Shown piece after piece: positions 54,877 through 64,000 of a stretch of DNA of 64,000 bases; within the stretch, counting starts at the first letter, position 1; each line of letters opens with the position of its first letter. The stretch is from Candidatus Omnitrophota bacterium (lineage in GTDB: Bacteria; Omnitrophota; Gorgyraeia; Zapsychrales; JANLHA01). The position numbers were made by a program, and so were the translations under genes. The DNA is taken from NCBI GenBank assembly GCA_022711395.1, contig JAKLFA010000002.1:67864-131863 (forward strand). The letters run 5' to 3'. Under the pieces are notes generated by a model. The model made no database searches. It had not been told where the DNA came from and saw only the letters and a program-made list of their open reading frames with translations.

Positions 54877-56646
54877 TTAATCGATGCCGTTGAAGGACAG
54901 GGCGACGTCAATGAGCGCCAGGTGGCTGTAGGCCTGCGGAAAATTCCCCAGAAGGCGTTTGGATGAGATGTCCATGTCTTCGCTGAAAAGCCCTAAATGA
55001 TTAGCGTGTTTGAGCATGTTATCGAACAATGTCTTGGCCAGGCCCTTCTCTCCGATCCGGTAAAGGCTTTTGATCATCCAGAACGTGCAGATGATGAACG
55101 ATGACTGCGGTATGCCGAAATCATCATTATTGCGGTAACGGTACATCATGCCGTTCTCACAGAGGTGTTCATAGGTCTGTTTGACCGTTGAGACATAACG
55201 GGGATCGGCCGCTTCGATAAAGCCATAATGTTCCATCAGGAGATTCGCGGCGTCATAGTTGGTGCCATCGTAAGCCTGGGTGAAGCACTGCATCCGTTCG
55301 TTCCAGCCATGTTTGAGGATATCGGCCTTGATGGTCTTTGCGATCGATGCCCAGCGCGTGACATAGGTTTCCATATTAAACAGGCGGGCGATGCGGGCGG
55401 CGCGGTCAAGGGCTACCCAGCTGAGGACTTTGGAAAAGGTGTAATGCTTCATGTCGCTTCGGAATTCCCAGATGCTGTGGTCCGGGTCTTTCCAATGCTG
55501 TTCGACGTGGCGGGCCAGCGTGCGGACGACCGTCCAGACATCTTCCTTGTTGTGCATGGTGCTGTGATACAGGATCAGGTATTCATAGATCATGTCGATC
55601 AGGCTTCCGTAAATATCGTTTTGTTTCTGCAGGTAGGCGTTGTTGCCGACGCGGACCGGCTTGGACCCCTCATATCCCTCGAGCCAATTGAGCTCATGCT
55701 CATCTAAAAGTTTGTCTCCGTTGATCCCGTACATGATCTGTATATGTTCATCTTTATACGAAATGATGTTGAGGATGAATTGCAGAAAACGGTTGGCAAC
55801 ATTGGAGTGGCGCAGGCGGTTAAGGATGCGGATCGTCATGGACGCGTCCCGGATCCAGCAGAACCTGTAGTCCCAGTTGCGGACATCGCCAATGCTTTCC
55901 GGGAGGCTGGTCGTGGCGGCGGCCAGGATCGCGCCGGTTTTTTGATAGGCCAGCAGTTTCAGCACCAGGGCGCTGCGCTCGATCTCCTCATTATAGAGCT
56001 CAAAAGGCGGCATTTTTTCCATCCATGACATCCAGTAGACCTTTGTGCGCTCGACCTGAAGTTCGATCTGATCGGTGGTCACCGGAGCGACCTTTTGGTT
56101 GTAATTCAAAAGAAGATAGGACATGGACCGCAGCTCGAACGGGGCCTGATCGTAAATGGCCTTTAACGGGATATTTGAATAAAGATAGATCGACTCATAG
56201 GAGCCTTCTTTTGAAAAACTTTTGATATAGGAATCATGGAGCGCTGTTTCTGTCGGGAATTCTCCGTAATTCATTTGCGGGTTGAACAGGACCCGGATGC
56301 GGGCGGTTCCTTTGCGGGGGCGCAGGATGCGGATGATCTCGGGCGGAGTATTATAGACCCCTTTAAAATCAATGTAGCGGGGCATGAAATCCACCAGTTC
56401 AAACGACCAGTCCTCGCTGCGGAAGACGGTCGAAAGGACATTGGTTTTGCGGATATATTTTTGTTCAGTGGTATAGTCCCCCTCGGGAATGATCTCAAAC
56501 GACCCTCCCCTTTTTGCGTCGAGGATCTTGGCGAAAACGGACCCGGAGTCAAATGCCGGAAGGCACAGCCAGTCGATCGAGCCCTGTTTGCTGATCAGGG
56601 CGGCGCTTTGACCGTTGCCGATGATGCCGTAATCCAGATTGTTCAT
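54877..56646 (-). CDS. Glycoside hydrolase family 15 enzyme (glucoamylase-like; probable trehalase)
   Basis: N-terminus DYGIIGNGQSAALISKQGSIDWLCLPAFDS typical of bacterial/archaeal GH15. Adjacent to and overlapping otsAB. Confidence 0.6.
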   Translation of the reverse strand: MNNLDYGIIGNGQSAALISKQGSIDWLCLPAFDSGSVFAKILDAKRGGSFEIIPEGDYTTEQKYIRKTNVLSTVFRSEDWSFELVDFMPRYIDFKGVYNTPPEIIRILRPRKGTARIRVLFNPQMNYGEFPTETALHDSYIKSFSKEGSYESIYLYSNIPLKAIYDQAPFELRSMSYLLLNYNQKVAPVTTDQIELQVERTKVYWMSWMEKMPPFELYNEEIERSALVLKLLAYQKTGAILAAATTSLPESIGDVRNWDYRFCWIRDASMTIRILNRLRHSNVANRFLQFILNIISYKDEHIQIMYGINGDKLLDEHELNWLEGYEGSKPVRVGNNAYLQKQNDIYGSLIDMIYEYLILYHSTMHNKEDVWTVVRTLARHVEQHWKDPDHSIWEFRSDMKHYTFSKVLSWVALDRAARIARLFNMETYVTRWASIAKTIKADILKHGWNERMQCFTQAYDGTNYDAANLLMEHYGFIEAADPRYVSTVKQTYEHLCENGMMYRYRNNDDFGIPQSSFIICTFWMIKSLYRIGEKGLAKTLFDNMLKHANHLGLFSEDMDISSKRLLGNFPQAYSHLALIDVALSFNGID

Positions 56647-58976
56647 TCTTTCCCCCCGTGCTGTTTTTTTTGATGTTGATCTGAAGCGGAGCAGACCGAT
56701 CGCAGGAAGGCCCTGAATTCCTGAGGCGAAGACAGCCGCAGGCCGGCCGCGGTCTCTCCTTTGCCGACCTTGATCGAGATCAGGCGCGGGTCGTTGAGCG
56801 TGAACATGTTCTCATCGGTGCGGTCATCTCCCGCGCAGACCGCGAGGTCGCAATCATCGGCCGCAAGAAAATGGGCGAGCGCCGCCCCTTTATGGACCTG
56901 CGCGTGGCTGACCTCAACGATGCATTTGCCATGGTGGACGCAGGCGGGTTTGTTGGCCAGCAGGTCAGTTAGATTGGCGATCAGATGCTGGGCCTTCCAC
57001 GCTCCGAATTCCGGGTCCGACAAACGGTAGTGCCAGACCAGGGACGCTTCTTTGGTCTCAATGAAGCTGCCGGGCGTGGTGGTGACGTATTGCTGGAAGA
57101 TCTCCAGGGCCTTTTCCCGGAACGACAAGTCGAGATTTTTATGGATCAGCTGCCATTGCCGCTGGTGAGGACGGCGGAAGCTCAGCCCATGCTCGGCGAT
57201 CAGGGTGACATTGAGGTTTCCCAGCCAGATATCGAGGTCAACGTTTTTGCGCCCGCTGATCACATAGACACGGGAATTTTTTAATGACGAGATCCCATCA
57301 AGCAGTTCGCGGATCTCCCGGCCCGGTGATGATTTATGCGGGGCGGATTCGAACTCGCGCAGGGTCCCATCATAGTCGATGAAGAACGTGGCCGCCCGGC
57401 TTTTTTTGATCCGGCCGATGGCTGTTTCGCGGGTCAGGGCTTGCCCGCTCTCTCCGCCCTCCTGGCGGTCGGGCGGTGATGAGGATAGGGCCTGCAGGAA
57501 CGCGCGGGTCCAGTGCCTGGCGTCATGCTTGATCACATGGGAGCGCATCTCCTTGATGTCTTGCCGGCGCTCAGCTTCCGGCATGGACAGGGCGTTCTTT
57601 AAACTTTCCACGATGCTGTCGATATGGTAGGGATTGACAATGACGGCATTGAACAGTTCGTTAGCCGCCCCGGCGAATTCACTTAAGATCAGGACCCCTG
57701 CTTCCTGCGTTTGGCAGGCGATGAATTCTTTAGCCACGAGGTTCATGCCGTCAATGAGGGGTGTGACCATGGCCACGTCAGCTGCCGAATAGAGCGCGCA
57801 GAGCTCGGTGAAGGAAATGCTCGAATGAATGAAATTGATGGGGACCGAATGGATAGAACCGTATTTGCCGTTGATGCGCCCGACCGTTTTTTCGATCAGG
57901 TCCTTGAGCTGATCATATTCTTTGACTTCTTCCCGGCTGGGGATGTTGATAAAGACAAAAACAGTGTCATTACGGCCTCCTGTTTCCGAAAGAAATTTTT
58001 CTATGGCTTCCAGCCGTCGGAGGATGCCTTTGGTATAGTCAAGGCGCTCGATGCTGAGCACGATCTTTTGTCCGGCGTATTTCTTTTTCAGCCGGGCGAG
58101 GCACGCCTGACAGCGTTTGGTCTTCAGCTCTCTCAGGAAACGTCCGGAATTGATTCCGACCGGAAAGACGCCAAGCCGGCAGAACCGCTCACCGGTCCGG
58201 ATGCGGTCGATGTCAGTGTCGAGGCTGAGCAGGCGGGTTACGGAGCTGCGGAAATGCCTCAGATAGCCGTAGGTGTGAAATCCGATCAGGTCAGAGCCCA
58301 GCAGGCCTTTGAGAAGCTCTTCCCGATGCGGCAGACAGCGGAAGATCTCATAGGATGGAAAAGGCGTGTGCAGAAAAAAACCGGTCTTAAGCTGAGGTTT
58401 GATGTCGCGCAGCATCTGCGGCACAAGAAACAAATGATAATCATGGATCCATACGAGATCGTCATGTCCGGAATTCTTCGCGATCATTTCCGCGAAACGG
58501 CGGTTGACCGATCGGTAGTTCTCCCACCACCGTGAATCATAATGAATGTATTGTGGAAAATAATGCAGCGCCGGCCACAGGCAGGCGTTGGCAAAGCCGT
58601 GATAATAATCCGATACTTCTTCGGAAGACAGAAAGACCGCGGAACACTGAAATTGTTTTTCGAGGAGTTTCGTAAGATCGGCGCGCTCATTCTGCCCTGA
58701 CGCGGCGTTTCCCGGCCAGCCGATCCAGTGCGGGCTGAAGTGTTTCACGCCTTCCAGCGCGGATACAAGGCCGCCGGATGATCGTTGGATGGATTTTTCG
58801 ATGGTGACCGGAAGCCGGTTTGCGGCAATGATGATCTTTTTATTGTGTGCCAGGGTGCCCCGTCCTTTGTTAAATAATCGACGTTCATTGAGCTTACGAA
58901 AGCGCTGTCTGAAGCCCCGGCGGGGGCGAGCGGATCCAGCGATGCTGTTATCGTTGCGGCCGCCGGGACGGATCAT
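56643..58976 (-). CDS. otsAB: Bifunctional trehalose-6-phosphate synthase (GT20) / trehalose-6-phosphate phosphatase (HAD) fusion
   Basis: GT20 N-terminus [15 protein letters not shown]...[11 protein letters not shown]-terminal HAD motif [10 protein letters not shown]. The ~40-aa Arg-rich N-terminal extension may not be translated. Confidence 0.8.
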
Positions 58977-59053: not shown

Positions 59054-60349
59054 TCAGCGAAGCTGGCGGGCGTCCTTGGCCAAAGATTCAAGGTCGATAA
59101 AATGATCAGCGATATATCCGGCGAGGAATTCGTTGAAGGGCGGGCTGTAGTGCACATTGTCCACGATCGCTTTCCGCTGCGGACCCCAGACGTTGAACAG
59201 ATGCGTGATATCAAGATAGCCGGCGGGTTTGAAGTCTTTGTGGAAACGGTTGCGGAAGTCCCTTCTTCTTAAAAAGATCTCGGGAAGGTCCCTGCGATAG
59301 AGGTCCTTGGAATAGTTATACATCGCGTCCGGCTGCAGGAAGAACAGGCTTTTGACCCCGAATTCGTCGCAGACCCGCCGGGACATCCGCTGGTTCATTT
59401 CAAAGCGCTTCGCGCTGACCTCGACATAATCCTGTTTTGAATCCTCCTCCTCCCCCCGGCTGGAGCGCGGCGCGCTGGCCGGATGGCCTTTCAGGATCTT
59501 TTTTTTGATGCCATTGGCGAGCCTGATCATCGGGACCCAGTTTAAGCGCTTCATGACCGGGATCGTGTCATAGGAGTCGAACTGCAGGCTGAAAAATTTT
59601 TCGATCAGTTGGACAGTAAAGTAGGGTTCATCCGCGCCGGTCCCCCAGTTGACGCCGTCCATGAAGATCACCAGGTCCGGCCTGTGCCCGGAGCGGATCA
59701 GGGCGGTCAAAAGCGCCAGTTCCTGGCTGGGGGTGTAATGCCCGTGCCCGTAATTGGTCACCTCAATGGAAACGGCAAGGCCGGCCTGCTTTGCCCGTTC
59801 GTTTAGGGTCCTGGAAAGAAAGCTCGGCCAGGTGTGCTCATCGGAGACGTTGTAGCCGAAGGTCGTGCTGCCGCCCAGGCAAAAGACGCGGATGACCGCA
59901 AGATCATCTTGGGCCGGCGGGTTTATGGTCCGGCGGACGGGAAAACCCTTCGGGTCGGCATCGATGTGCAGAAGCTCGCCGTCAAAGAACGGCTCTGCGA
60001 ACTGGACCCAGGGCTGATAGATGAAGCCCCGTTCCGCCAGTTCGAAAAAATCATCCAGCACTGCTGAGGCGTATCGCTGGTCCGCGGCGTTCTCATAGGC
60101 GGTGTAGTCGAACCAGTCCAGCTGATATTCGCTTCGCCGCCCGTTATCCAGAGGCTTTCCGGCCGGGTCGAAGAACTTCTGGGCCTGGAGCATGTGCTTT
60201 GAAAGGACGGAGCGCCTGAACTGCTGCAGCGCCTCTCTCGCCCAAAATCCGGCGCCGATCAGCAGATTGAGCAGGATGAGAATCGCGAATGTGTTGAACG
60301 TGAAGACCGCCGCGGCCGAGTAGGCCTTTTTGAGCTTTGAGATAGTCAT
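59054..60349 (-). CDS. Membrane-anchored hypothetical protein, possible SGNH/GDSL-like hydrolase fold
   Basis: N-terminal TM. Block VFCLGGSTTFGYNVSDEHTWPS resembles SGNH block I. Weak. Confidence 0.3.
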   Translation of the reverse strand: MTISKLKKAYSAAAVFTFNTFAILILLNLLIGAGFWAREALQQFRRSVLSKHMLQAQKFFDPAGKPLDNGRRSEYQLDWFDYTAYENAADQRYASAVLDDFFELAERGFIYQPWVQFAEPFFDGELLHIDADPKGFPVRRTINPPAQDDLAVIRVFCLGGSTTFGYNVSDEHTWPSFLSRTLNERAKQAGLAVSIEVTNYGHGHYTPSQELALLTALIRSGHRPDLVIFMDGVNWGTGADEPYFTVQLIEKFFSLQFDSYDTIPVMKRLNWVPMIRLANGIKKKILKGHPASAPRSSRGEEEDSKQDYVEVSAKRFEMNQRMSRRVCDEFGVKSLFFLQPDAMYNYSKDLYRRDLPEIFLRRRDFRNRFHKDFKPAGYLDITHLFNVWGPQRKAIVDNVHYSPPFNEFLAGYIADHFIDLESLAKDARQLR

Positions 60350-60471: not shown

Positions 60472-63400
60472 TTACGAATCCACCCGCGACAGCTGCAAGG
60501 ACTCTTGCGCCTCCTCGGTGCCGAACTTGATCGCCGGCTCTCTCGGGTCAGCCAACCCCAGGATCGGCAGGACGCTGTTGATCGGGGTGATGTCGATGAT
60601 CACAGGCGTAAAGCCCTGGATGTCCATGTTCAGAAGCGGCTCCATGCCCGTCATATCGAACTGGATCCCCTCTCCCTCGCCTCCCTGGCGGTCGATATCG
60701 ATCGTGTTCATATCGATCCCGCCGACGTCTTTCTCGTTGTTGACTGAGGAGTTGGTTTCGGGCATCGGGCGCGGGGTTTCAAGTTTTTGGATTAACAAAG
60801 ATGATTTAGCATCCCAGTTACGATTCCATGCTTCAAATCTCGCCAGCTCGCCCAAATACTCTCTTTTTTCTCTTTCGAACTTTTCTAGATCCTCTCCATA
60901 ATCAATATCTTTTTGGCTAATCCAAGTTCCGTCAACAGGTAACAACATTGAATCGCCATAAACTGTTCTATACTCATATTCAATAACAGGTTCAGCGGGC
61001 TCTGTCGGTTCGATAGGTTCATGGTTAGAGTCTCGAGTTCTTTTTAACCCCGTTTTGATTTCATTAATAATCCTTGCTGATATTCTTCCTGACTCAAGAA
61101 TGCCTGCATCAGGATTTTTAAGCCCTATACTCCAAAGTGCATCGACCACAAGAATATTCGCAGATTGCTGCGCAAGGGTTATTAAAGGTTCTAATGCGCG
61201 GATGTCTCCTAATTCGGATAAATTTTTGATGGCTTCATTGATCGTTGGAAGATCAGACGATTTAAGAGATTGTGCATAATGGTAAACAAGGTACGCGTCA
61301 GCTAGTTGTTCTTTTGTTGCATCAAGCTTTTTCAGAGCTGTTTCAGTTTCTGCTAATCCATACTTAGAAAGCAGGGTTAATAAAGGCTGAACGGCACGCG
61401 TATCTTCAATCTCACCTAAACTTTTGCTTGCTTGTGCTGCTTGTGAAGAAGTATAAGAGCTCAGTCCTTTAATGTAGGCATCAGTTAGTTGCTGATTGGT
61501 TGCGCCTAGTTTTCGTAAGGCTGTTTCAGTTTTTTTTAATCCGTATTTAGAGAGCACAGTTAGTAAAGGCTGAACGGCACGCGCATCTCCAATCTCACCT
61601 AATCTTTCACTCACTCGCGTTACTGCTAAAGAAACATCAGAGCTAAGTGCTTTGATGTAGGCATCAGTTAGTTGCTGATTGGTTGCGCCTAGTTTTCGTA
61701 AGGCTGTTTCAGTTTTTTCTAATCTGTACTTAGAAAGCACGGTTAGTAAAGGTTGAATGGCGCGGGCATCTCCAACCTCACCCAAGCTTACACTAGCTTG
61801 TGCTACTACTGAAGAATCTGAAGATGCGAGAGCTTTGATGTAGGCATCAGTTAGTTGCTGATTGGTTGCCCCAATTCTTTTTAGAGTTGTTTCAATGTCT
61901 GAGGATGCAGTTCTTGAAAGAACTATCAACAAAGGCTTGATCGCCCGAGCATCTTTGAGTTCTTCTAAAATACCAGGAGTCCTCTCAATCGCCTCCTGCA
62001 GCCTTGTTACATCCTCATCATCAGTCTTCCAATGGTTGCCAATGATGTGTATGGCGCGAATGGCTTTCTTAATAGCGCTCGGATTTTCATTATAATCGTA
62101 ATCCAGAAAGTTTCTCGCCCATTTTAAAGTCCACGGCCAAGCTTTAATTGCCATACCCTTAAAGCCACCTGGACTTTGGTAAATAATCATTATTGCAGCT
62201 GCAATTAAAGGAGCTCCAAAAAATATTATCATTCCGGGAAGTTCTTTTCTTTCTATGGCCGCAAGCAGGCTGCCGTTAAAGGCGGCGAAGAGCCCGCCGT
62301 GCATGGCCCCCATCAGCCCAACCGGCCCGCTCAAGATCGCGGCGTTGGTTTTTTGATTCCGGTTGTAAACCTTTAAAGCCTCCTGTACACCCGGATATTC
62401 TGCAAGTATGGATTCCATCTCGTCAAAGGCTTGTGAAACGCCTTGTACGTAAAACGCATCGTATCCCATATGGGAAGCTTCACCCCATATTGCTGAAGCT
62501 TCTTCGTACGCCTTGATGATGTCTAATGGAACTATTTTAAGGTAAACATTAAGAAGCTGCTCATCGGTTACGCCAAATTTTTTTAGGGCGGTTTCGGTTT
62601 CTGGTACGCCCCTGACAAGAGCTTTTAATAGGGGTTCTATTGCTTTTGTATCACCTAACTCTCCCAATTTTATACTTGCTTGTGCAACCCAACCTGATTC
62701 TAGCCCCTCAATATACACATCAACCAACTGTTCGTTGGTTGCACCTAATTTTTTTAGGGCAGATTCTGTCTCTGGCAAGGCATGTCTGGCAAGAGATTTT
62801 AATAGGGGCTCTATCGCACGCTCATCGCCAAATTCTTCTAATTTTGTACTTGCTTTTCTGATTCTTTGATAATCTTGATAATTTGTGAATTGAAGAGCCT
62901 GAATGTATGCATCAACCAACTGTTCGTTGGTTGCACCAATTTTTTTTAGGACCGTTTCTGTTTCTGGTAAGGCATGCTGGGCAAGAGCCTTTAATAGGGG
63001 TTCTATTGCTTTTGTATCACCTAACTCTCCCAATCTTATGCTTGTTTGTGCGGTTCGATCTGATGGTAGCGCTTGAATATAAGCATCAACCAATTGTTCA
63101 TTGCTTACGCCTAATTTTTTTAAGGCAGATTCTGTCTCTGGTGAGGCATACTCGATGAGAGCTTTTAATAATGGTTCTATTGCTTTTGTGTCACCCAACT
63201 CTCCCAATCTTATGCTTGCTTGTGAAACCCAAATTGATTGTAGCATCTGAATGTATGCATCAACCAATTGTTCATTGCTTGCACCCAATTTTTTTATAGC
63301 AGATTCTGTTTCTGGAGATGGGTGTTTGGCGAGAGCCTTTAATAGTGGTTCTATTGCCTTCGCATCACTTAACTCCACCAGTTTTATTCTCGCTTGTGCT

Positions 63401-63879
63401 ACAACGGAAGACTGAGAGGATCCAAGTGCTTCAATATAAGCATCAACCAATTGTTGGTTGGTTAGATATTGTTTAATCGTATTCTCAATATCATTCACAT
63501 ATGCATCATCGATAACGGCAGCGAGAATTTTTTTCAAAAGATTAATATCATCGTTGGTATGTTCTTTTTGCTTTCCTATTAGATGAATAGCCCGAATGAC
63601 ACCCTTAGCACTTTCTTTTGATTCAATGAAATTCACGTTTTTCAATCTTTTTCTCGCTCCGCTTAACGTCCATGGCCCGCTCAGGATCGAGGCGTTGGTT
63701 TCAGTTTTTTCCTTGCGTATAATTTCAATTTTCTCTGGGGTATAAGCCAAATTTTCACGTCCTACGATGGCATACCCATCACCTATAACAATCCAACTTT
63801 CGACAGTTTCATCCTCTCGGGGATCTCCGCGGCCATACTCATTCCCTTCTGAGTCAATCAAAAGATTATATTGTGTCAA
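60472..63879 (-). CDS. Giant HEAT-like (PBS-lyase-type) repeat protein with central TM helix and duplicated N-module
   Basis: At least 12 copies of a ~58-64-aa unit (...LGELGDTKAIEPLLKAL...PETE.ALKKLGATNEQLVDAYIQAL...). Hydrophobic segment GMIIFFGAPLIAAAIMIIY in the middle. The N-module (ILSGPWTLSGARKRL...AIRAIHLIG) recurs after the first repeat array. The ATG at 63879 may not be the true start; the gene could extend toward the window edge. Confidence 0.6.
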   Translation of the reverse strand: MTQYNLLIDSEGNEYGRGDPREDETVESWIVIGDGYAIVGRENLAYTPEKIEIIRKEKTETNASILSGPWTLSGARKRLKNVNFIESKESAKGVIRAIHLIGKQKEHTNDDINLLKKILAAVIDDAYVNDIENTIKQYLTNQQLVDAYIEALGSSQSSVVAQARIKLVELSDAKAIEPLLKALAKHPSPETESAIKKLGASNEQLVDAYIQMLQSIWVSQASIRLGELGDTKAIEPLLKALIEYASPETESALKKLGVSNEQLVDAYIQALPSDRTAQTSIRLGELGDTKAIEPLLKALAQHALPETETVLKKIGATNEQLVDAYIQALQFTNYQDYQRIRKASTKLEEFGDERAIEPLLKSLARHALPETESALKKLGATNEQLVDVYIEGLESGWVAQASIKLGELGDTKAIEPLLKALVRGVPETETALKKFGVTDEQLLNVYLKIVPLDIIKAYEEASAIWGEASHMGYDAFYVQGVSQAFDEMESILAEYPGVQEALKVYNRNQKTNAAILSGPVGLMGAMHGGLFAAFNGSLLAAIERKELPGMIIFFGAPLIAAAIMIIYQSPGGFKGMAIKAWPWTLKWARNFLDYDYNENPSAIKKAIRAIHIIGNHWKTDDEDVTRLQEAIERTPGILEELKDARAIKPLLIVLSRTASSDIETTLKRIGATNQQLTDAYIKALASSDSSVVAQASVSLGEVGDARAIQPLLTVLSKYRLEKTETALRKLGATNQQLTDAYIKALSSDVSLAVTRVSERLGEIGDARAVQPLLTVLSKYGLKKTETALRKLGATNQQLTDAYIKGLSSYTSSQAAQASKSLGEIEDTRAVQPLLTLLSKYGLAETETALKKLDATKEQLADAYLVYHYAQSLKSSDLPTINEAIKNLSELGDIRALEPLITLAQQSANILVVDALWSIGLKNPDAGILESGRISARIINEIKTGLKRTRDSNHEPIEPTEPAEPVIEYEYRTVYGDSMLLPVDGTWISQKDIDYGEDLEKFEREKREYLGELARFEAWNRNWDAKSSLLIQKLETPRPMPETNSSVNNEKDVGGIDMNTIDIDRQGGEGEGIQFDMTGMEPLLNMDIQGFTPVIIDITPINSVLPILGLADPREPAIKFGTEEAQESLQLSRVDS
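61291..62023. repeat. Four near-identical ~183-bp direct tandem repeats (inside the HEAT-repeat gene)
   Basis: Unit beginning gtaggcatcagttagttgctgattggttgcgcctagttttcgtaaggctgtttcag recurs at ~61291, 61474, 61657 and 61840 (period 183 bp). Confidence 0.75.
62553..63500. repeat. Second family of ~174-192-bp tandem repeats (inside the HEAT-repeat gene)
   Basis: Unit containing atcaaccaa(c/t)tgttc(g/a)ttgg..gcacc.aattttttta recurs at ~62719, 62911, 63085, 63259 and 63443, with variable period and degenerate flanks. Confidence 0.7.
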
Positions 63880-64000
63880 ACTAGAGCCATACCATCCCCA
63901 CCCTGTAGTTAATTCGCCAATTTTTACTTTTCTTCCGCCTTCTATACGTTCATTTTGATGGACGATATCAAAATCATAACCTTGCTCACTCAGCTCAATG

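What the first reader, a model, noticed from the sequence alone, without database searches (positions are those of the whole stretch)
60472..63879. 1135-aa HEAT/PBS-lyase-repeat protein with internal module duplication and a central TM helix
The protein is two consecutive copies of [globular N-module + array of ~60-aa GELGD..AIEPLL HEAT-like repeats], separated by a hydrophobic helix. It ends in an acidic tail. Such repeat giants evolve rapidly and often mediate protein scaffolding at the membrane. The function is unknown, and the gene may continue beyond the window edge.
Basis: seen in the sequence. Interest (0 to 1): 0.55.

Follow-up and report, generated by a model that had tools for sequence, protein, structure and literature searches.

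The report
Tail of a modular Omnitrophota envelope protein
The "1135-aa HEAT-repeat protein" is the last 41% of a 2,849-residue, cysteine-free, signal-peptide-bearing protein from an uncultivated Omnitrophota bacterium. It belongs to a very large family, not described in the sources I could search, in which a conserved head and a conserved 65-residue tail bracket interchangeable cargo modules, here two helical-repeat scaffolds.

Summary
The ORF, its HEAT_PBS repeats, the internal duplication, the hydrophobic segment and the acidic tail are all real. The protein is not 1135 aa: the frame stays open to the window edge, and an independent contig (1105/1105 nt identical) extends the gene to 8,550 nt / 2,849 aa.

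Full layout:
- Sec-type signal peptide
- a ~350-aa N-domain with no curated family
- an enzyme cassette (P-loop kinase-like, RmlD-like, weak Nudix, APH-like)
- a small module
- HEAT solenoid 1
- a hydrophobic insert plus HEAT solenoid 2
- a long helix
- a ~58-aa C-terminal domain and acidic tail

The C-domain occurs in 1,611 protein clusters, always at the extreme C-terminus. It usually co-occurs with the N-domain. Named relatives are almost all Omnitrophota.

Modules are bounded by a short motif, here TN[AS][AS] (5 observed, 0.14 expected). Third-codon-position GC (GC3) jumps at three of the five copies: 0.57 to 0.30, and back up to 0.85. The protein has no cysteine.

A third assembly is nucleotide-identical except for a clean 183-nt (one-repeat) deletion between 64-nt perfect repeats.

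Most likely this is an exported envelope protein that displays binding scaffolds, with the C-domain acting as a sorting or anchoring signal. The function is inferred, not shown.

The parts
60472..64000 (-). 3' 41% of an 8,550-nt gene, encoding residues 1675-2849 of a 2,849-aa protein. The stop codon is at 60472-60474. The ORF is open at the window edge.
   Evidence: L001 is identical over 1105 nt and continues the ORF upstream to an ATG. The merged gene has a single stop.
63700..63999 (-). C-terminal two thirds of a small module (full-protein residues 1640-1774) that ends ...EKIEIIRKEK. It recurs in paralogs.
   Evidence: Homologous segments occur in P0003. Similar segments are seen by eye in P0126 and P0135. 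No Pfam or NCBIfam match. The AF2 model is low-confidence here.
63664..63699 (-). Module-boundary motif 3 (TNAS-ILSGPWTL) that opens HEAT cassette 1
   Evidence: The same TNASILSGPWTL follows the N-domain directly in paralog P0264.
62350..63663 (-). HEAT cassette 1: a four-helix cap, five ~58-64-aa double HEAT-like units (array 62566-63459) and one degenerate unit
   Evidence: Pfam HEAT_PBS/HEAT_2. Unit alignment. TRF array 62898-63398. AF2 alpha-solenoid with pLDDT 70-90. Foldseek matches to alphaRep, CAND1 and karyopherins.
62323..62349 (-). Module-boundary motif 4 (TNAA-ILSGP) that opens cassette 2. A local GC3 peak (0.55-0.63) sits here.
62137..62322 (-). Hydrophobic insertion in the cap of cassette 2. 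It has a weak amphipathic/hydrophobic helix (62254-62322) and one strong transmembrane-type helix GMIIFFGAPLIAAAIMIIY (62179-62235).
   Evidence: Kyte-Doolittle score 2.3 and summed Hessa-type dG -0.16 for the strong helix, 5.3 for the weak one. It is an insertion relative to cassette 1. It is conserved in P0003.
61120..62136 (-). HEAT cassette 2: cap (PWTLKWARNF...IRAIHIIG), one partial unit, three 61-aa double units (61315-61863) and one degenerate unit
   Evidence: AF2 pLDDT 62-93.
61472..61535 (+). First copy of a 64-nt perfect direct repeat, at the junction of repeat units. The second copy is at 61655-61718. Recombination or slippage between them removes exactly one 183-nt unit.
   Evidence: L068 equals the window minus 183 nt and is otherwise 100% identical.
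61655..61718 (+). Second copy of the 64-nt perfect direct repeat
60757..61119 (-). Spacer between cassette 2 and the tail. It contains a long charged helix (60778-60894, EDLEKFEREKREYLGELARFEAWNRNWDAKSSLLIQKLE).
   Evidence: AF2 helix at ORF residues 1029-1073, low to moderate confidence. Conserved in P0003.
60742..60756 (-). Module-boundary motif 5 (TNSSV), 5 residues before the C-domain. GC3 rises here from 0.30 to 0.85.
   Evidence: Other family members carry an equivalent motif (DxAM[LV], DxAQL, SSSP[VIL]) at the same place.
60553..60726 (-). Conserved C-terminal domain core, 58 aa: VGGIDMNTIDIDRQGGEGEGIQFDMTGMEPLLNMDIQGFTPVIIDITPINSVLPILGL
   Evidence: A profile search found 1,611 cluster representatives at E<=1e-3, with the match always at the extreme C-terminus. 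Near-invariant GGID.N, F, GF.PVII, P, S.LP.LGL. No Pfam, NCBIfam or PDB relative.
60475..60552 (-). Acidic tail after the C-domain core (26 aa, 6 acidic and 3 basic residues)
   Evidence: Across the family the tail has a median of 15 aa, with a mean of 4.9 acidic and 2.4 basic residues.

Best explanation
The feature is the 3' end of an 8.5-kb gene of an uncultivated Omnitrophota bacterium.

The 2,849-aa product is built on a family-wide chassis. A Sec-type signal peptide (…ILPPGYAQS) and a conserved ~350-aa N-domain sit at the front. A conserved ~58-aa C-domain plus short acidic tail sits at the very end. Between them lie cargo cassettes separated by a short boundary motif (here TN[AS][AS]).

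In this member the cargo is:
- an enzyme block (P-loop kinase-like, RmlD-like reductase, weak Nudix, APH-like kinase), which lies outside the window
- a small module
- two paralogous HEAT-like alpha-solenoids, which lie inside the window

The second solenoid is preceded by a hydrophobic insertion with one strong membrane helix.

Most likely mechanism (inferred): the protein is exported by Sec. It is held at the envelope by the internal membrane helix and/or by the C-domain, which acts as a sorting or anchoring signal for machinery encoded elsewhere. It presents the solenoids as protein-binding scaffolds or adhesive surfaces, as proposed for HEAT arrays of the giant Omnitrophota 'Archaeovorins'.

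The cassettes are reshuffled between paralogs at the boundary motifs. Repeat number changes by recombination between identical stretches inside the arrays.

Shown: gene extent, architecture, family membership, repeat fold, copy-number variant, compositional mosaic, cysteine absence.

Inferred: export, surface location, binding function, role of the C-domain.
For: Gene extent:
- The frame is open to the window edge.
- L001 is identical over 1105 nt and supplies residues 1-1674. The merged ORF has one stop.

Family:
- The C-domain profile hits 1,611 representatives, 281 of them at E<=1e-10. In all 150 listed the match ends within about 40 residues of the C-terminus, in proteins of 67 to 6,249 aa.
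- 61 of 101 C-domain proteins carry the N-domain. It starts near residue 40 wherever the N-terminus is complete.
- The N-domain alone finds at least 1,220 clusters at E<=1e-10. Those with names are almost all 'Candidatus Omnitrophota/Omnitrophica hypothetical protein'.
- 65 genome loci hold the C-domain, nearly all in Omnitrophota MAGs, with up to 4 per genome.
- In about 10 of the 65 loci a new N-domain starts 150-500 nt after a C-domain, so the genes sit in head-to-tail tandems.

Cassettes:
- The boundary motif occurs 5 times against 0.14 expected, and 0 of 20,000 shuffles reach 5.
- Other lineages use DxAML, DxAQL or SSSPV at the equivalent positions.
- Paralog P0264+P0003 has the order N-domain, HEAT1-like, small module, TM+HEAT2, C-domain. 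The window gene has N-domain, enzymes, small module, HEAT1, TM+HEAT2, C-domain.
- GC3 shifts at the boundaries at residues 1640, 2225 and 2756.

Solenoids:
- Pfam HEAT_PBS and HEAT_2 pass their cut-offs.
- alphaRep sequence matches reach about E 1e-28.
- AF2 predicts two helical-repeat solenoids at pLDDT 70-93.
- Foldseek matches CAND1, karyopherins and alphaRep.

Export:
- The N-terminus has the form of a signal peptide, with basic residues, a 16-residue hydrophobic core and PPGYAQS.
- There are 0 Cys in 2,849 aa against 1.23% in the other long ORFs of the window (P about 5e-16).
- The family holds 0.11% Cys over 116,307 residues.
- From general knowledge, cysteine depletion is typical of S-layer proteins, autotransporter passengers and type I secretion substrates.

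Literature context: HEAT repeats, NUDIX and many TM helices are hallmarks of Omnitrophota long proteins (10.1101/2023.11.21.568195; 10.64898/2026.06.07.730766).
Against: - The enzyme cassette looks catalytically intact. The RmlD-like part keeps GxxGxxG and YxxxK, and the P-loop is present (read directly from the P0002 sequence). These enzymes need ATP or NAD(P)H, which is hard to reconcile with an extracytoplasmic location.
- No dedicated topology or signal-peptide predictor could be run.
- The C-domain has no TM helix or basic cluster like known sorting signals (summed dG 9.2; acidic tail).
- No partner gene is conserved within 4 kb of the 65 loci.
- AF2 gave no confident model of the C-domain, the small module or the hydrophobic insert.
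- No ligand of the solenoids is known.
- The GC3 mosaic also fits weaker codon selection on fast-evolving cargo, so it does not prove cassette transfer.
Confidence: 0.6

Rival explanations
1. Same gene and family, but the bulk of the protein faces the cytoplasm. The N-terminal hydrophobic segment and the internal helix act as membrane tethers. The enzymes work on cytoplasmic nucleotides and nucleotide-sugars, and the HEAT solenoids scaffold a membrane-associated metabolic complex.
For: - The enzyme cassette needs ATP, NAD(P)H and dTDP-sugar, and its motifs are intact.
- Nielsen & Lui classify 46% of long Omnitrophota proteins as TM-only, with the bulk predicted cytoplasmic.
- West-Roberts et al. 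doubt some extracellular calls for metabolic domains.
Against: - The N-terminus looks like a cleavable signal peptide: a 16-residue hydrophobic core followed by PPGYAQS.
- There is no further hydrophobic segment between residues 64 and 2236.
- The complete absence of Cys in 2,849 aa, and 11-fold Cys depletion family-wide, is not expected for cytoplasmic enzymes.
Confidence: 0.22
2. The protein is a polyprotein. The boundary motifs (TN[AS][AS] here, DxAML or SSSPV elsewhere) are processing sites cut by a lineage-specific protease, releasing the enzymes and the two solenoids as separate products.
For: - The motif is strongly enriched and sits exactly at module borders.
- It is uniform within a protein and differs between lineages, while the preceding module stays homologous.
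- One copy always lies 4-10 residues before the invariant GG of the C-domain.
- Proteolytic cleavage of giant Omnitrophota proteins has been suggested before.
Against: - The protein has no protease domain and none is encoded next to it.
- The motif fits no cleavage specificity that I could recognise.
- Conserved linkers can arise from concerted evolution alone.
- There are no proteomic data.
Confidence: 0.12
3. A stand-alone ~1135-aa HEAT-repeat protein that starts at the TTG at 63879.
For: the ORF listing reports that start.
Against: - There is no in-frame stop upstream to the window edge.
- The identical contig L001 continues the ORF for 5 kb to an ATG preceded by other genes.
- The related genome L002 has an ortholog that starts with the same signal peptide and N-domain.
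Confidence: 0.02
4. Assembly artefact: a collapsed or expanded repeat array, or a chimera of different genomes joined at conserved family sequences. A chimera would also explain the GC3 mosaic.
For: - Two other assemblies break inside array 1: L001 ends at window 62896 and L068 starts at 63034.
- L068 has one unit fewer.
- The family's conserved ends could mislead assemblers.
Against: - Three assemblies from different runs and assemblers agree at 100% nucleotide identity across all three GC3 junctions. L001 spans residue 1640. L068 spans residues 2225 and 2756 and continues into the downstream intergenic region.
- Repeat units are only 67-84% identical at the DNA level.
- The related genome L002 shows the same mosaic.
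- Only the 2-versus-3-unit count in array 2 remains open.
Confidence: 0.03
5. A phycobilin lyase or phycobilisome-degradation-type (CpcE/CpcF/NblB) enzyme.
For: The best NCBIfam hits are CpcE (E 8.5e-12) and NblB (E 1.7e-10), and the Pfam family is named 'PBS lyase HEAT-like repeat'.
Against: - Scores of 45 and 41 bits fall far below the equivalog cut-offs of 330 and 300. The matches cover only about 70 residues of repeat.
- The organism is Omnitrophota, not a cyanobacterium.
- The architecture is unrelated.
Confidence: 0.01

Closest known systems
Omnitrophota long/giant modular membrane proteins ('Archaeovorins', West-Roberts et al. 2023 bioRxiv 10.1101/2023.11.21.568195; class 1 'multi-enzyme clusters with internal HEAT scaffolding', Nielsen & Lui 2026 bioRxiv 10.64898/2026.06.07.730766)
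   Same: Same phylum. Both have a signal peptide plus internal TM helices. HEAT repeats are the commonest domain, and NUDIX, kinase and sugar-nucleotide enzymes share the same polypeptide. Repeats have diverged at the DNA level. A role at the cell surface has been proposed.
   Different: This gene is 8.55 kb, not >90 kb (or >=10 kaa). It has no C39/S8 peptidase, SecA-like, glycosyltransferase or methyltransferase domains. The conserved N-domain, the C-terminal domain, the boundary motifs, the cysteine absence and the GC3 mosaic are not mentioned in the sections of those papers that I read.
PBS-type HEAT-like repeat proteins / alphaRep scaffolds (Pfam PF03130, PF13646; PDB e.g. 3ltj, 4zv6, 6bzx)
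   Same: The sequence motif is the same (…LGELGD.RAIEPLLKAL…). Both form helix-turn-helix repeats that stack into an alpha-solenoid, with 25-30% identity to alphaRep and E about 1e-28 by sequence. These are known protein-binding scaffolds.
   Different: The unit here is ~60 aa, alternating one canonical and one degenerate hairpin (ETE.ALKKLGATNEQLVDAYIQAL). The arrays are cassettes within a 2,849-aa exported multi-domain protein.
Phycobilin lyase subunits and NblB (CpcE/CpcF/NblB)
   Same: They share the repeat type that gave the Pfam family its name.
   Different: The match is far below the equivalog cut-offs. It covers repeats only. The host is not a cyanobacterium and there is no phycobilisome context.
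C-terminal protein-sorting signals with many-to-one enzyme pairing (PEP-CTERM/exosortase, GlyGly-CTERM/rhombosortase, LPXTG/sortase, T9SS CTD)
   Same: A short homology domain found only at the extreme C-terminus of many otherwise unrelated proteins that carry signal peptides. It is restricted to one lineage, with many copies per genome and no linked partner gene.
   Different: There is no TM helix plus basic cluster; the tail is acidic. The hydrophobic stretch is proline-rich and not TM-like. The C-domain is coupled to a conserved 350-aa N-domain. No processing enzyme has been identified, and no NCBIfam sorting-signal model matches.
Giant type I-secreted adhesins (LapA/RTX type: N-terminal retention module, repeats, C-terminal secretion signal)
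   Same: Conserved N-terminal module, variable repetitive middle, uncleaved acidic C-terminal ~60 residues, cysteine-poor.
   Different: This protein has a Sec signal peptide and an internal TM helix. It has no RTX nonapeptide repeats, and no adjacent ABC transporter, membrane-fusion protein or LapG-type protease.

Membership tests
Pfam HEAT_PBS (PF03130) / HEAT_2 (PF13646) repeat proteins | Whole-protein score above the Pfam gathering threshold | tested here: met
   84.1 bits against 20.9, and 61.2 bits against 27.7
Pfam HEAT_PBS (PF03130) / HEAT_2 (PF13646) repeat proteins | Helix-turn-helix repeats stacked into an alpha-solenoid | tested here: met
   AF2 predicts two solenoids at pLDDT 70-93 with 4 helices per ~60-aa unit. 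Foldseek matches alphaRep, CAND1 and karyopherins. alphaRep sequence matches reach E about 1e-28.
Phycobilin lyase CpcE / NblB (NCBIfam equivalogs NF058502, NF045915) | Score above the curated equivalog cut-off over the full model | tested here: not met
   45.1 against 330, and 40.8 against 300. Only about 70 residues are matched.
Phycobilin lyase CpcE / NblB (NCBIfam equivalogs NF058502, NF045915) | Cyanobacterial / phycobilisome genomic context | tested here: not met
   Relatives are named Candidatus Omnitrophota. The neighbours are trehalose-metabolism and GDSL-like genes.
Archaeovorins (West-Roberts et al. 2023) | Giant gene (>90,000 bp in the defining set) | tested here: not met
   The gene is 8,550 nt. 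The definition was read.
Archaeovorins (West-Roberts et al. 2023) | Omnitrophota origin, with TM helices and HEAT repeats | tested here: met
Archaeovorins (West-Roberts et al. 2023) | Characteristic domain set (glycosyltransferases, methyltransferases, glycosyl hydrolases, peptidases, SAM enzymes, NUDIX) and SecA-like or C39/S8 domains | tested here: inconclusive
   Only a weak NUDIX match (17.8 bits, below the 21.1 cut-off) plus RmlD, APH and a P-loop. No GT, MT, GH, peptidase or SecA domains.
Omnitrophota N-domain/C-domain chassis family (delineated here) | ~58-aa C-domain (VGGID.N…IQFD…GF.PVII.I.P..S.LP.LGL) at the extreme C-terminus | tested here: met
   160.8 bits, ORF residues 1088-1175 of 1175. 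Family-wide position.
Omnitrophota N-domain/C-domain chassis family (delineated here) | Signal peptide plus conserved ~350-aa N-domain starting near residue 40 | tested here: met
   This part lies outside the window, on the identical contig L001 (protein P0002). The N-domain query was taken from this protein and finds at least 1,220 clusters. 61 of 101 C-domain proteins co-occur with it.
Omnitrophota N-domain/C-domain chassis family (delineated here) | Repeated short boundary motif between modules, with one copy just after the N-domain and one just before the C-domain | tested here: met
   5 copies at residues 396, 1640, 1775, 2225 and 2756, against 0.14 expected. Other members shown. The pattern was defined after seeing the data.
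Omnitrophota N-domain/C-domain chassis family (delineated here) | Cysteine depletion | tested here: met
   0 Cys in 2,849 residues. The family holds 0.11% against 1.23% in the other long ORFs of the window.
Known C-terminal sorting signals (PEP-CTERM, GlyGly-CTERM, LPXTG) | Signature motif followed by a TM helix and a basic cluster at the C-terminus | tested here: not met
   The hydrophobic stretch is not TM-like (summed dG 9.2, three prolines), and the tail is acidic.
Known C-terminal sorting signals (PEP-CTERM, GlyGly-CTERM, LPXTG) | Match to curated NCBIfam/TIGRFAM sorting-domain models | tested here: not met
   No family matched the last 102 residues even at E<=10.
Known C-terminal sorting signals (PEP-CTERM, GlyGly-CTERM, LPXTG) | Co-occurrence with a dedicated sorting enzyme across genomes | not testable with these tools
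   This needs phylogenetic profiling over complete genomes. No conserved neighbour lies within 4 kb of the 65 loci.
Type I-secreted RTX/LapA-like adhesins | RTX nonapeptide repeats; no N-terminal Sec signal; linked ABC transporter and membrane-fusion protein | tested here: not met
   No RTX family among the Pfam hits. A signal-peptide-like N-terminus is present. No transporter genes lie nearby.

The most novel reading that the evidence does not exclude
The conserved signal peptide plus N-domain, the lineage-specific boundary motifs and the strictly terminal C-domain together may define an undescribed, Omnitrophota-wide 'display chassis'.
- The C-domain would be a new class of C-terminal sorting or anchoring signal, read by unknown machinery.
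- The boundary motifs would be processing and/or recombination joints.
- Tandem paralogs would exchange cargo cassettes (enzymes, HEAT, ankyrin or TPR scaffolds, membrane hairpins) through the conserved ends.

This would give these episymbiotic or predatory nanobacteria a rapidly diversifying, cysteine-free surface proteome. The giant Archaeovorins could then be extreme elaborations of the same chassis.
Probability: 0.3. Interest if true: 0.8.

Novelty: new variant of a known kind. Interest (0 to 1): 0.55.

Why it matters
Omnitrophota are ubiquitous, uncultivated, probably host-dependent nanobacteria. Their long multi-domain envelope proteins are thought to mediate attachment to and attack on other cells, but how these proteins are targeted, assembled and diversified is unknown.

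This locus gives a tractable 2.8-kaa example with clear parts: a conserved head, a conserved tail present in about 1,600 protein clusters, defined module joints, a natural repeat copy-number variant and a striking compositional mosaic.

If the tail is a sorting signal, it would let the surface proteome of the phylum be predicted from sequence. It would also point to the missing sorting machinery.

If the joints are recombination or cleavage sites, they would explain how the giant proteins are built. The HEAT cassettes are natural relatives of the engineered alphaRep binders.

Tried and rejected
- **Word-indexed search with the C-terminal 214 aa.** It found only 3 proteins, which is a sensitivity limit. 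I replaced it with a profile search of all representatives.
- **C-domain structure.** AF2 was unconfident for the C-domain in both models. There is no PDB sequence relative.
- **Curated families.** Neither Pfam nor NCBIfam matched the C-domain, the small module or the N-domain at E<=10.
- **Literature strings.** Searches for GGIDMN, GGIDLN and DQAML found nothing relevant. A search for Omnitrophota plus sorting signal or conserved terminal domains found nothing.
- **Conserved partner gene.** Clustering the flanking ORFs of 65 loci found no family in more than 3 loci.
- **Synteny.** I tested L004, the probable C-terminus of the ortholog at 85% identity, against the window. The downstream ORFs differ in size, so the test was not informative.
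- **Other family members in the window.** None found.
- **Rejected readings.** Phycobilin lyase. Stand-alone 1135-aa protein. Chimeric assembly as the cause of the GC3 mosaic. The C-domain's hydrophobic stretch as a TM anchor.
- **Recent horizontal transfer of the HEAT cassettes.** This is not established. The same low-GC3 cargo with high-GC3 ends is seen in the related genome and family-wide. Weaker codon selection on cargo, or GC-biased conversion of the conserved ends, are equally good explanations.

Full report
**Observation**

An ORF on the minus strand ends with a stop at 60472-60474, and the ORF listing gives it a TTG start at 63879, 1135 aa. Translating upstream in the same frame shows no stop up to base 63999. 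The TTG is only the first start-like codon after the window edge. I therefore worked with the 1175 residues encoded by 60475-63999 and number them as ORF residues.

Pfam confirms the repeats: HEAT_PBS 84.1 bits (cut-off 20.9, E 1.5e-24) and HEAT_2 61.2 bits. Tandem Repeats Finder finds two DNA arrays, 62898-63398 (period 174) and 61337-61869 (period 183).

Anchoring on N[EQ]QL.DAYI and [RK]A[IV].PLL gives five units of 57-64 aa plus a degenerate one in the first half. The second half has three 61-aa units, a leading partial unit and a trailing degenerate one. Units are 67-84% identical in DNA within an array and about 60% between arrays, so these are old, diverged repeats.

The two halves align at E 5e-75 (41% identity over 370 columns), including the cap (PWTL..AR…IRAIH.IG) that precedes each array. 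The hydrophobic region is a ~63-residue insertion in the second cap, between ILSGP and PWTL. Only residues 589-607 are clearly membrane-helix-like (Kyte-Doolittle 2.3; summed Hessa-type dG -0.16). The preceding segment is weak (dG 5.3).

**The gene is much longer**

The first homology search returned P0002, a 2042-aa partial protein named 'sugar nucleotide-binding protein [Candidatus Omnitrophota bacterium]'. Its last 368 residues are identical to the first 368 of the window ORF.

Its contig, L001 (SPAdes, ERZ795055), overlaps window 62896-64000 with 1105 of 1105 identical bases. It ends at the edge of repeat array 1. Joining the two gives an 8,550-nt ORF with a single stop, encoding 2,849 aa.

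The upstream 1,674 residues contain:
- a signal-peptide-like N-terminus (MFHTIQQNRFGFAVRLLSAVLVFSFLSTTILPPGYAQS)
- about 350 residues with no Pfam or NCBIfam match
- a guanylate-kinase-like P-loop
- an RmlD-like reductase (145 bits)
- a weak NUDIX match
- an APH-type kinase

**Independent support for the assembly**

A third assembly, L068 (MEGAHIT, ERZ27257456), is 100% identical to window 63034-61655 and to 61535-60179. It lacks exactly 183 nt, one repeat unit. The deletion is bounded by a 64-nt perfect direct repeat at 61472-61535 and 61655-61718.

Every base of the window gene is therefore reproduced by another assembly. Only the count of 2 or 3 units in array 2 is open. The structure itself is not an artefact.

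**Fold**

AF2 on the 1175 residues (17-sequence alignment, mean pLDDT 62.8) gives two confident helical solenoids, at residues 110-480 and 625-955 (pLDDT 70-93). Each ~60-aa unit has four helices, so each unit is one canonical PBS-type HEAT hairpin plus one shorter, degenerate hairpin.

Foldseek finds CAND1, karyopherins and alphaRep at 25-30% identity. By sequence, alphaRep proteins match at about E 1e-28. The first 103 residues, the hydrophobic insert and the last 215 residues are low-confidence. One long helix is predicted at 1029-1073.

The CpcE and NblB models score 45 and 41 bits against cut-offs of 330 and 300. The 'PBS lyase' label therefore applies to the repeat, not the function.

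**The tail defines a family**

The last ~88 residues are conserved in P0003 and three short proteins. The core reads VGGIDMNTIDIDRQGGEGEGIQFDMTGMEPLLNMDIQGFTPVIIDITPINSVLPILGL and is followed by an acidic tail.

A profile of these sequences, searched against 1.84 billion cluster representatives, finds 1,611 proteins at E<=1e-3 and 281 at E<=1e-10. In all 150 listed, the match lies at the extreme C-terminus of proteins ranging from 67 to 6,249 aa.

Among 101 of these proteins (292 aa or longer), 61 also carry the ~350-aa N-domain of P0002. It starts near residue 40 wherever the N-terminus is complete. Most of those lacking it are short or lack an initial Met, so they are probably fragments.

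The N-domain alone finds at least 1,220 clusters at E<=1e-10. Those with names are almost all 'Candidatus Omnitrophota/Omnitrophica hypothetical protein', and none of the listed proteins has a precomputed Pfam hit in the N-domain.

A pattern scan of species-representative genomes finds 65 loci. Nearly all are in Omnitrophota MAGs, with up to four per genome. A few MAGs are labelled Planctomycetales, Lysobacterales or Desulfuromonadaceae, which I take to be automatic labels or binning errors. In about 10 loci a new N-domain starts 150-500 nt after a C-domain, so the genes form head-to-tail tandems. No other gene family recurs in the flanks.

Neither domain matches Pfam, NCBIfam or PDB sequences. 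An AF2 model of a minimal member (P0119, 585 aa) is confident for the N-domain (pLDDT about 90) but has no Foldseek match in the PDB.

**Cassettes and joints**

The middle parts of family members are unrelated to one another. By eye they include HEAT, ankyrin and TPR-like repeats, enzyme-like stretches and membrane hairpins.

In the window protein, TN[AS][AS] occurs five times, at full-protein residues 396, 1640, 1775, 2225 and 2756. The expected number is 0.14, and none of 20,000 shuffles reached 5. I defined the pattern after seeing the data.

The five copies fall right after the N-domain, before the small module, before each HEAT cassette, and five residues before the C-domain. Other members carry DxAM[LV], DxAQL or SSSP[VIL] at the equivalent places. 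The motif is uniform within a protein and differs between lineages.

The closest genome (GCA_038222225.1, locus L002) has a paralog (P0264 plus P0003, interrupted by a frameshift or stop). Its order is N-domain, TNASILSGPWTL-HEAT1-like, small module, TM+HEAT2, C-domain. It is followed in tandem by the ortholog of the window gene. The same cassettes therefore occur in a different order and number.

**Composition**

GC3 by segment is:

| Segment | GC3 |
|---|---|
| N-domain | 0.62 |
| Enzyme block | 0.53 |
| Small module and HEAT1 | 0.32 |
| Joint at residue 2225 | 0.55-0.63 |
| HEAT2 | 0.27-0.30 |
| C-domain | 0.85 |
| Neighbouring genes | 0.60-0.76 |

The shifts coincide with the joints at residues 1640, 2225 and 2756.

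L002 shows the same pattern. Across the 65 loci, the C-domain has higher GC3 than the adjacent cargo in 45 of 61 cases (0.53 against 0.43, Wilcoxon p 6.5e-7). The N-domain is higher in 25 of 29 cases (p 1e-4).

This is a family property, not a strain-specific recent transfer. It fits three explanations that I cannot separate: GC-biased conversion among paralogous ends, stronger codon selection on the conserved ends, or foreign or AT-drifting cargo.

**Cysteine**

The 2,849-aa protein has no cysteine. The other long ORFs of the window have 1.23%, giving P of about 5e-16. The 101 family proteins have 0.11% over 116,307 residues, and 44 of them have none.

From general knowledge, such depletion is typical of S-layer proteins, autotransporter passengers and type I secretion substrates. 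These are proteins that cross membranes unfolded or live outside the cytoplasm.

**Interpretation**

Together with the signal-peptide-like N-terminus, the cysteine absence favours an exported envelope protein. The HEAT cassettes would be binding scaffolds or adhesive surfaces, and the C-domain a sorting or anchoring signal.

This agrees with published views of the much larger Omnitrophota proteins, where HEAT repeats are the commonest domain and are predicted to be extracellular.

The main difficulty is the apparently intact nucleotide-dependent enzyme block. Those papers note the same paradox. A cytoplasm-facing, membrane-tethered scaffold is the main rival. A polyprotein cut at the joints is a non-exclusive alternative.

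I found no description of the N-domain, the C-domain, the joints, the cysteine absence or the GC3 pattern in the searchable literature or in the sections of the Omnitrophota papers that I read. That search was limited.

**Verdict**

The object is a mid-sized member of the known kind of modular Omnitrophota envelope proteins. It is built on a conserved head-and-tail chassis that appears to be uncharacterised.

Confidence is high for identity and architecture (about 0.9). It is moderate to low for localisation and function (about 0.45).

Noticed in passing
window 60472-64000 plus L001:5260-10280 (whole gene): There is not one cysteine in 2,849 residues, although the protein includes RmlD-like, kinase-like and Nudix-like enzyme domains. 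The whole family is 11-fold depleted in Cys.
   Followed up: yes
window 60475-63999; L001; L002; L003-L067: There is a sharp intragenic GC3 mosaic (0.85 in the C-domain, about 0.30 in the HEAT cargo, 0.62 in the N-domain) with breaks at the module-boundary motifs. Family-wide, the conserved ends have higher GC3 than the cargo (p 6.5e-7). The cause is unresolved: gene conversion, codon selection or foreign cargo.
   Followed up: partly
L001:3664-5160 (just upstream of the gene, outside the window): A 498-aa multi-pass membrane protein has a weak PMT_2 (protein O-mannosyltransferase-like) match (E 6.6e-4). Long multi-pass membrane ORFs (identity not tested) also flank family genes in 3 of the 65 other loci. 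The Ser/Thr-rich boundary motifs (SSSPV, TNAS) could be glycosylation sites; this is speculative.
   Followed up: partly
L002:6469-9999 (GCA_038222225.1, JBBRHV010000048.1): The paralog is split into a 514-aa and a 659-aa ORF by a frameshift or stop inside a HEAT repeat (…SIKSHSF*L*MELLEV…). This is either a pseudogene, a sequencing error in a repeat, or programmed. The ortholog of the window gene follows it in tandem.
   Followed up: partly
window 54877-58976 (-): A trehalose module lies immediately downstream of the gene's neighbour. It consists of a fused trehalose-6-phosphate synthase/phosphatase (777 aa; Glyco_transf_20 plus Trehalose_PPase) overlapping by 4 nt with a GH15/trehalase-like protein (589 aa).
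   Followed up: partly
window 59054-60349 (-): A 431-aa protein has an N-terminal hydrophobic segment and a below-threshold GDSL-like lipase/acylhydrolase match (28.9 bits against 32.9). It lies directly downstream on the same strand. A promoter-like site sits at 60426-60399, and no terminator-like site follows the big gene's stop.
   Followed up: partly
P0004 (Candidatus Omnitrophota, 1396 aa): The same ~60-aa double HEAT unit (…EEALKKLGASKEQMVDGYIAAL…ALGELGDRRAIKPLL…) occurs about ten times in a protein with a different N-terminus and no C-domain. This cassette type is therefore shared beyond the chassis family.
   Followed up: no
P0121, P0122, P0158 and others (family members): A recurring sub-module follows many boundary motifs: an amphipathic Gly/Ala-rich helix, then a strong TM helix, then a repeat domain (ankyrin or HEAT). 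This mirrors the hydrophobic insert of the window's cassette 2. P0158 (6,249 aa) repeats it many times.
   Followed up: no
window 63879: the ORF listing reported this ORF with a TTG start although the frame runs off the window edge. Edge ORFs in that tool's output can therefore look complete.
   Followed up: yes
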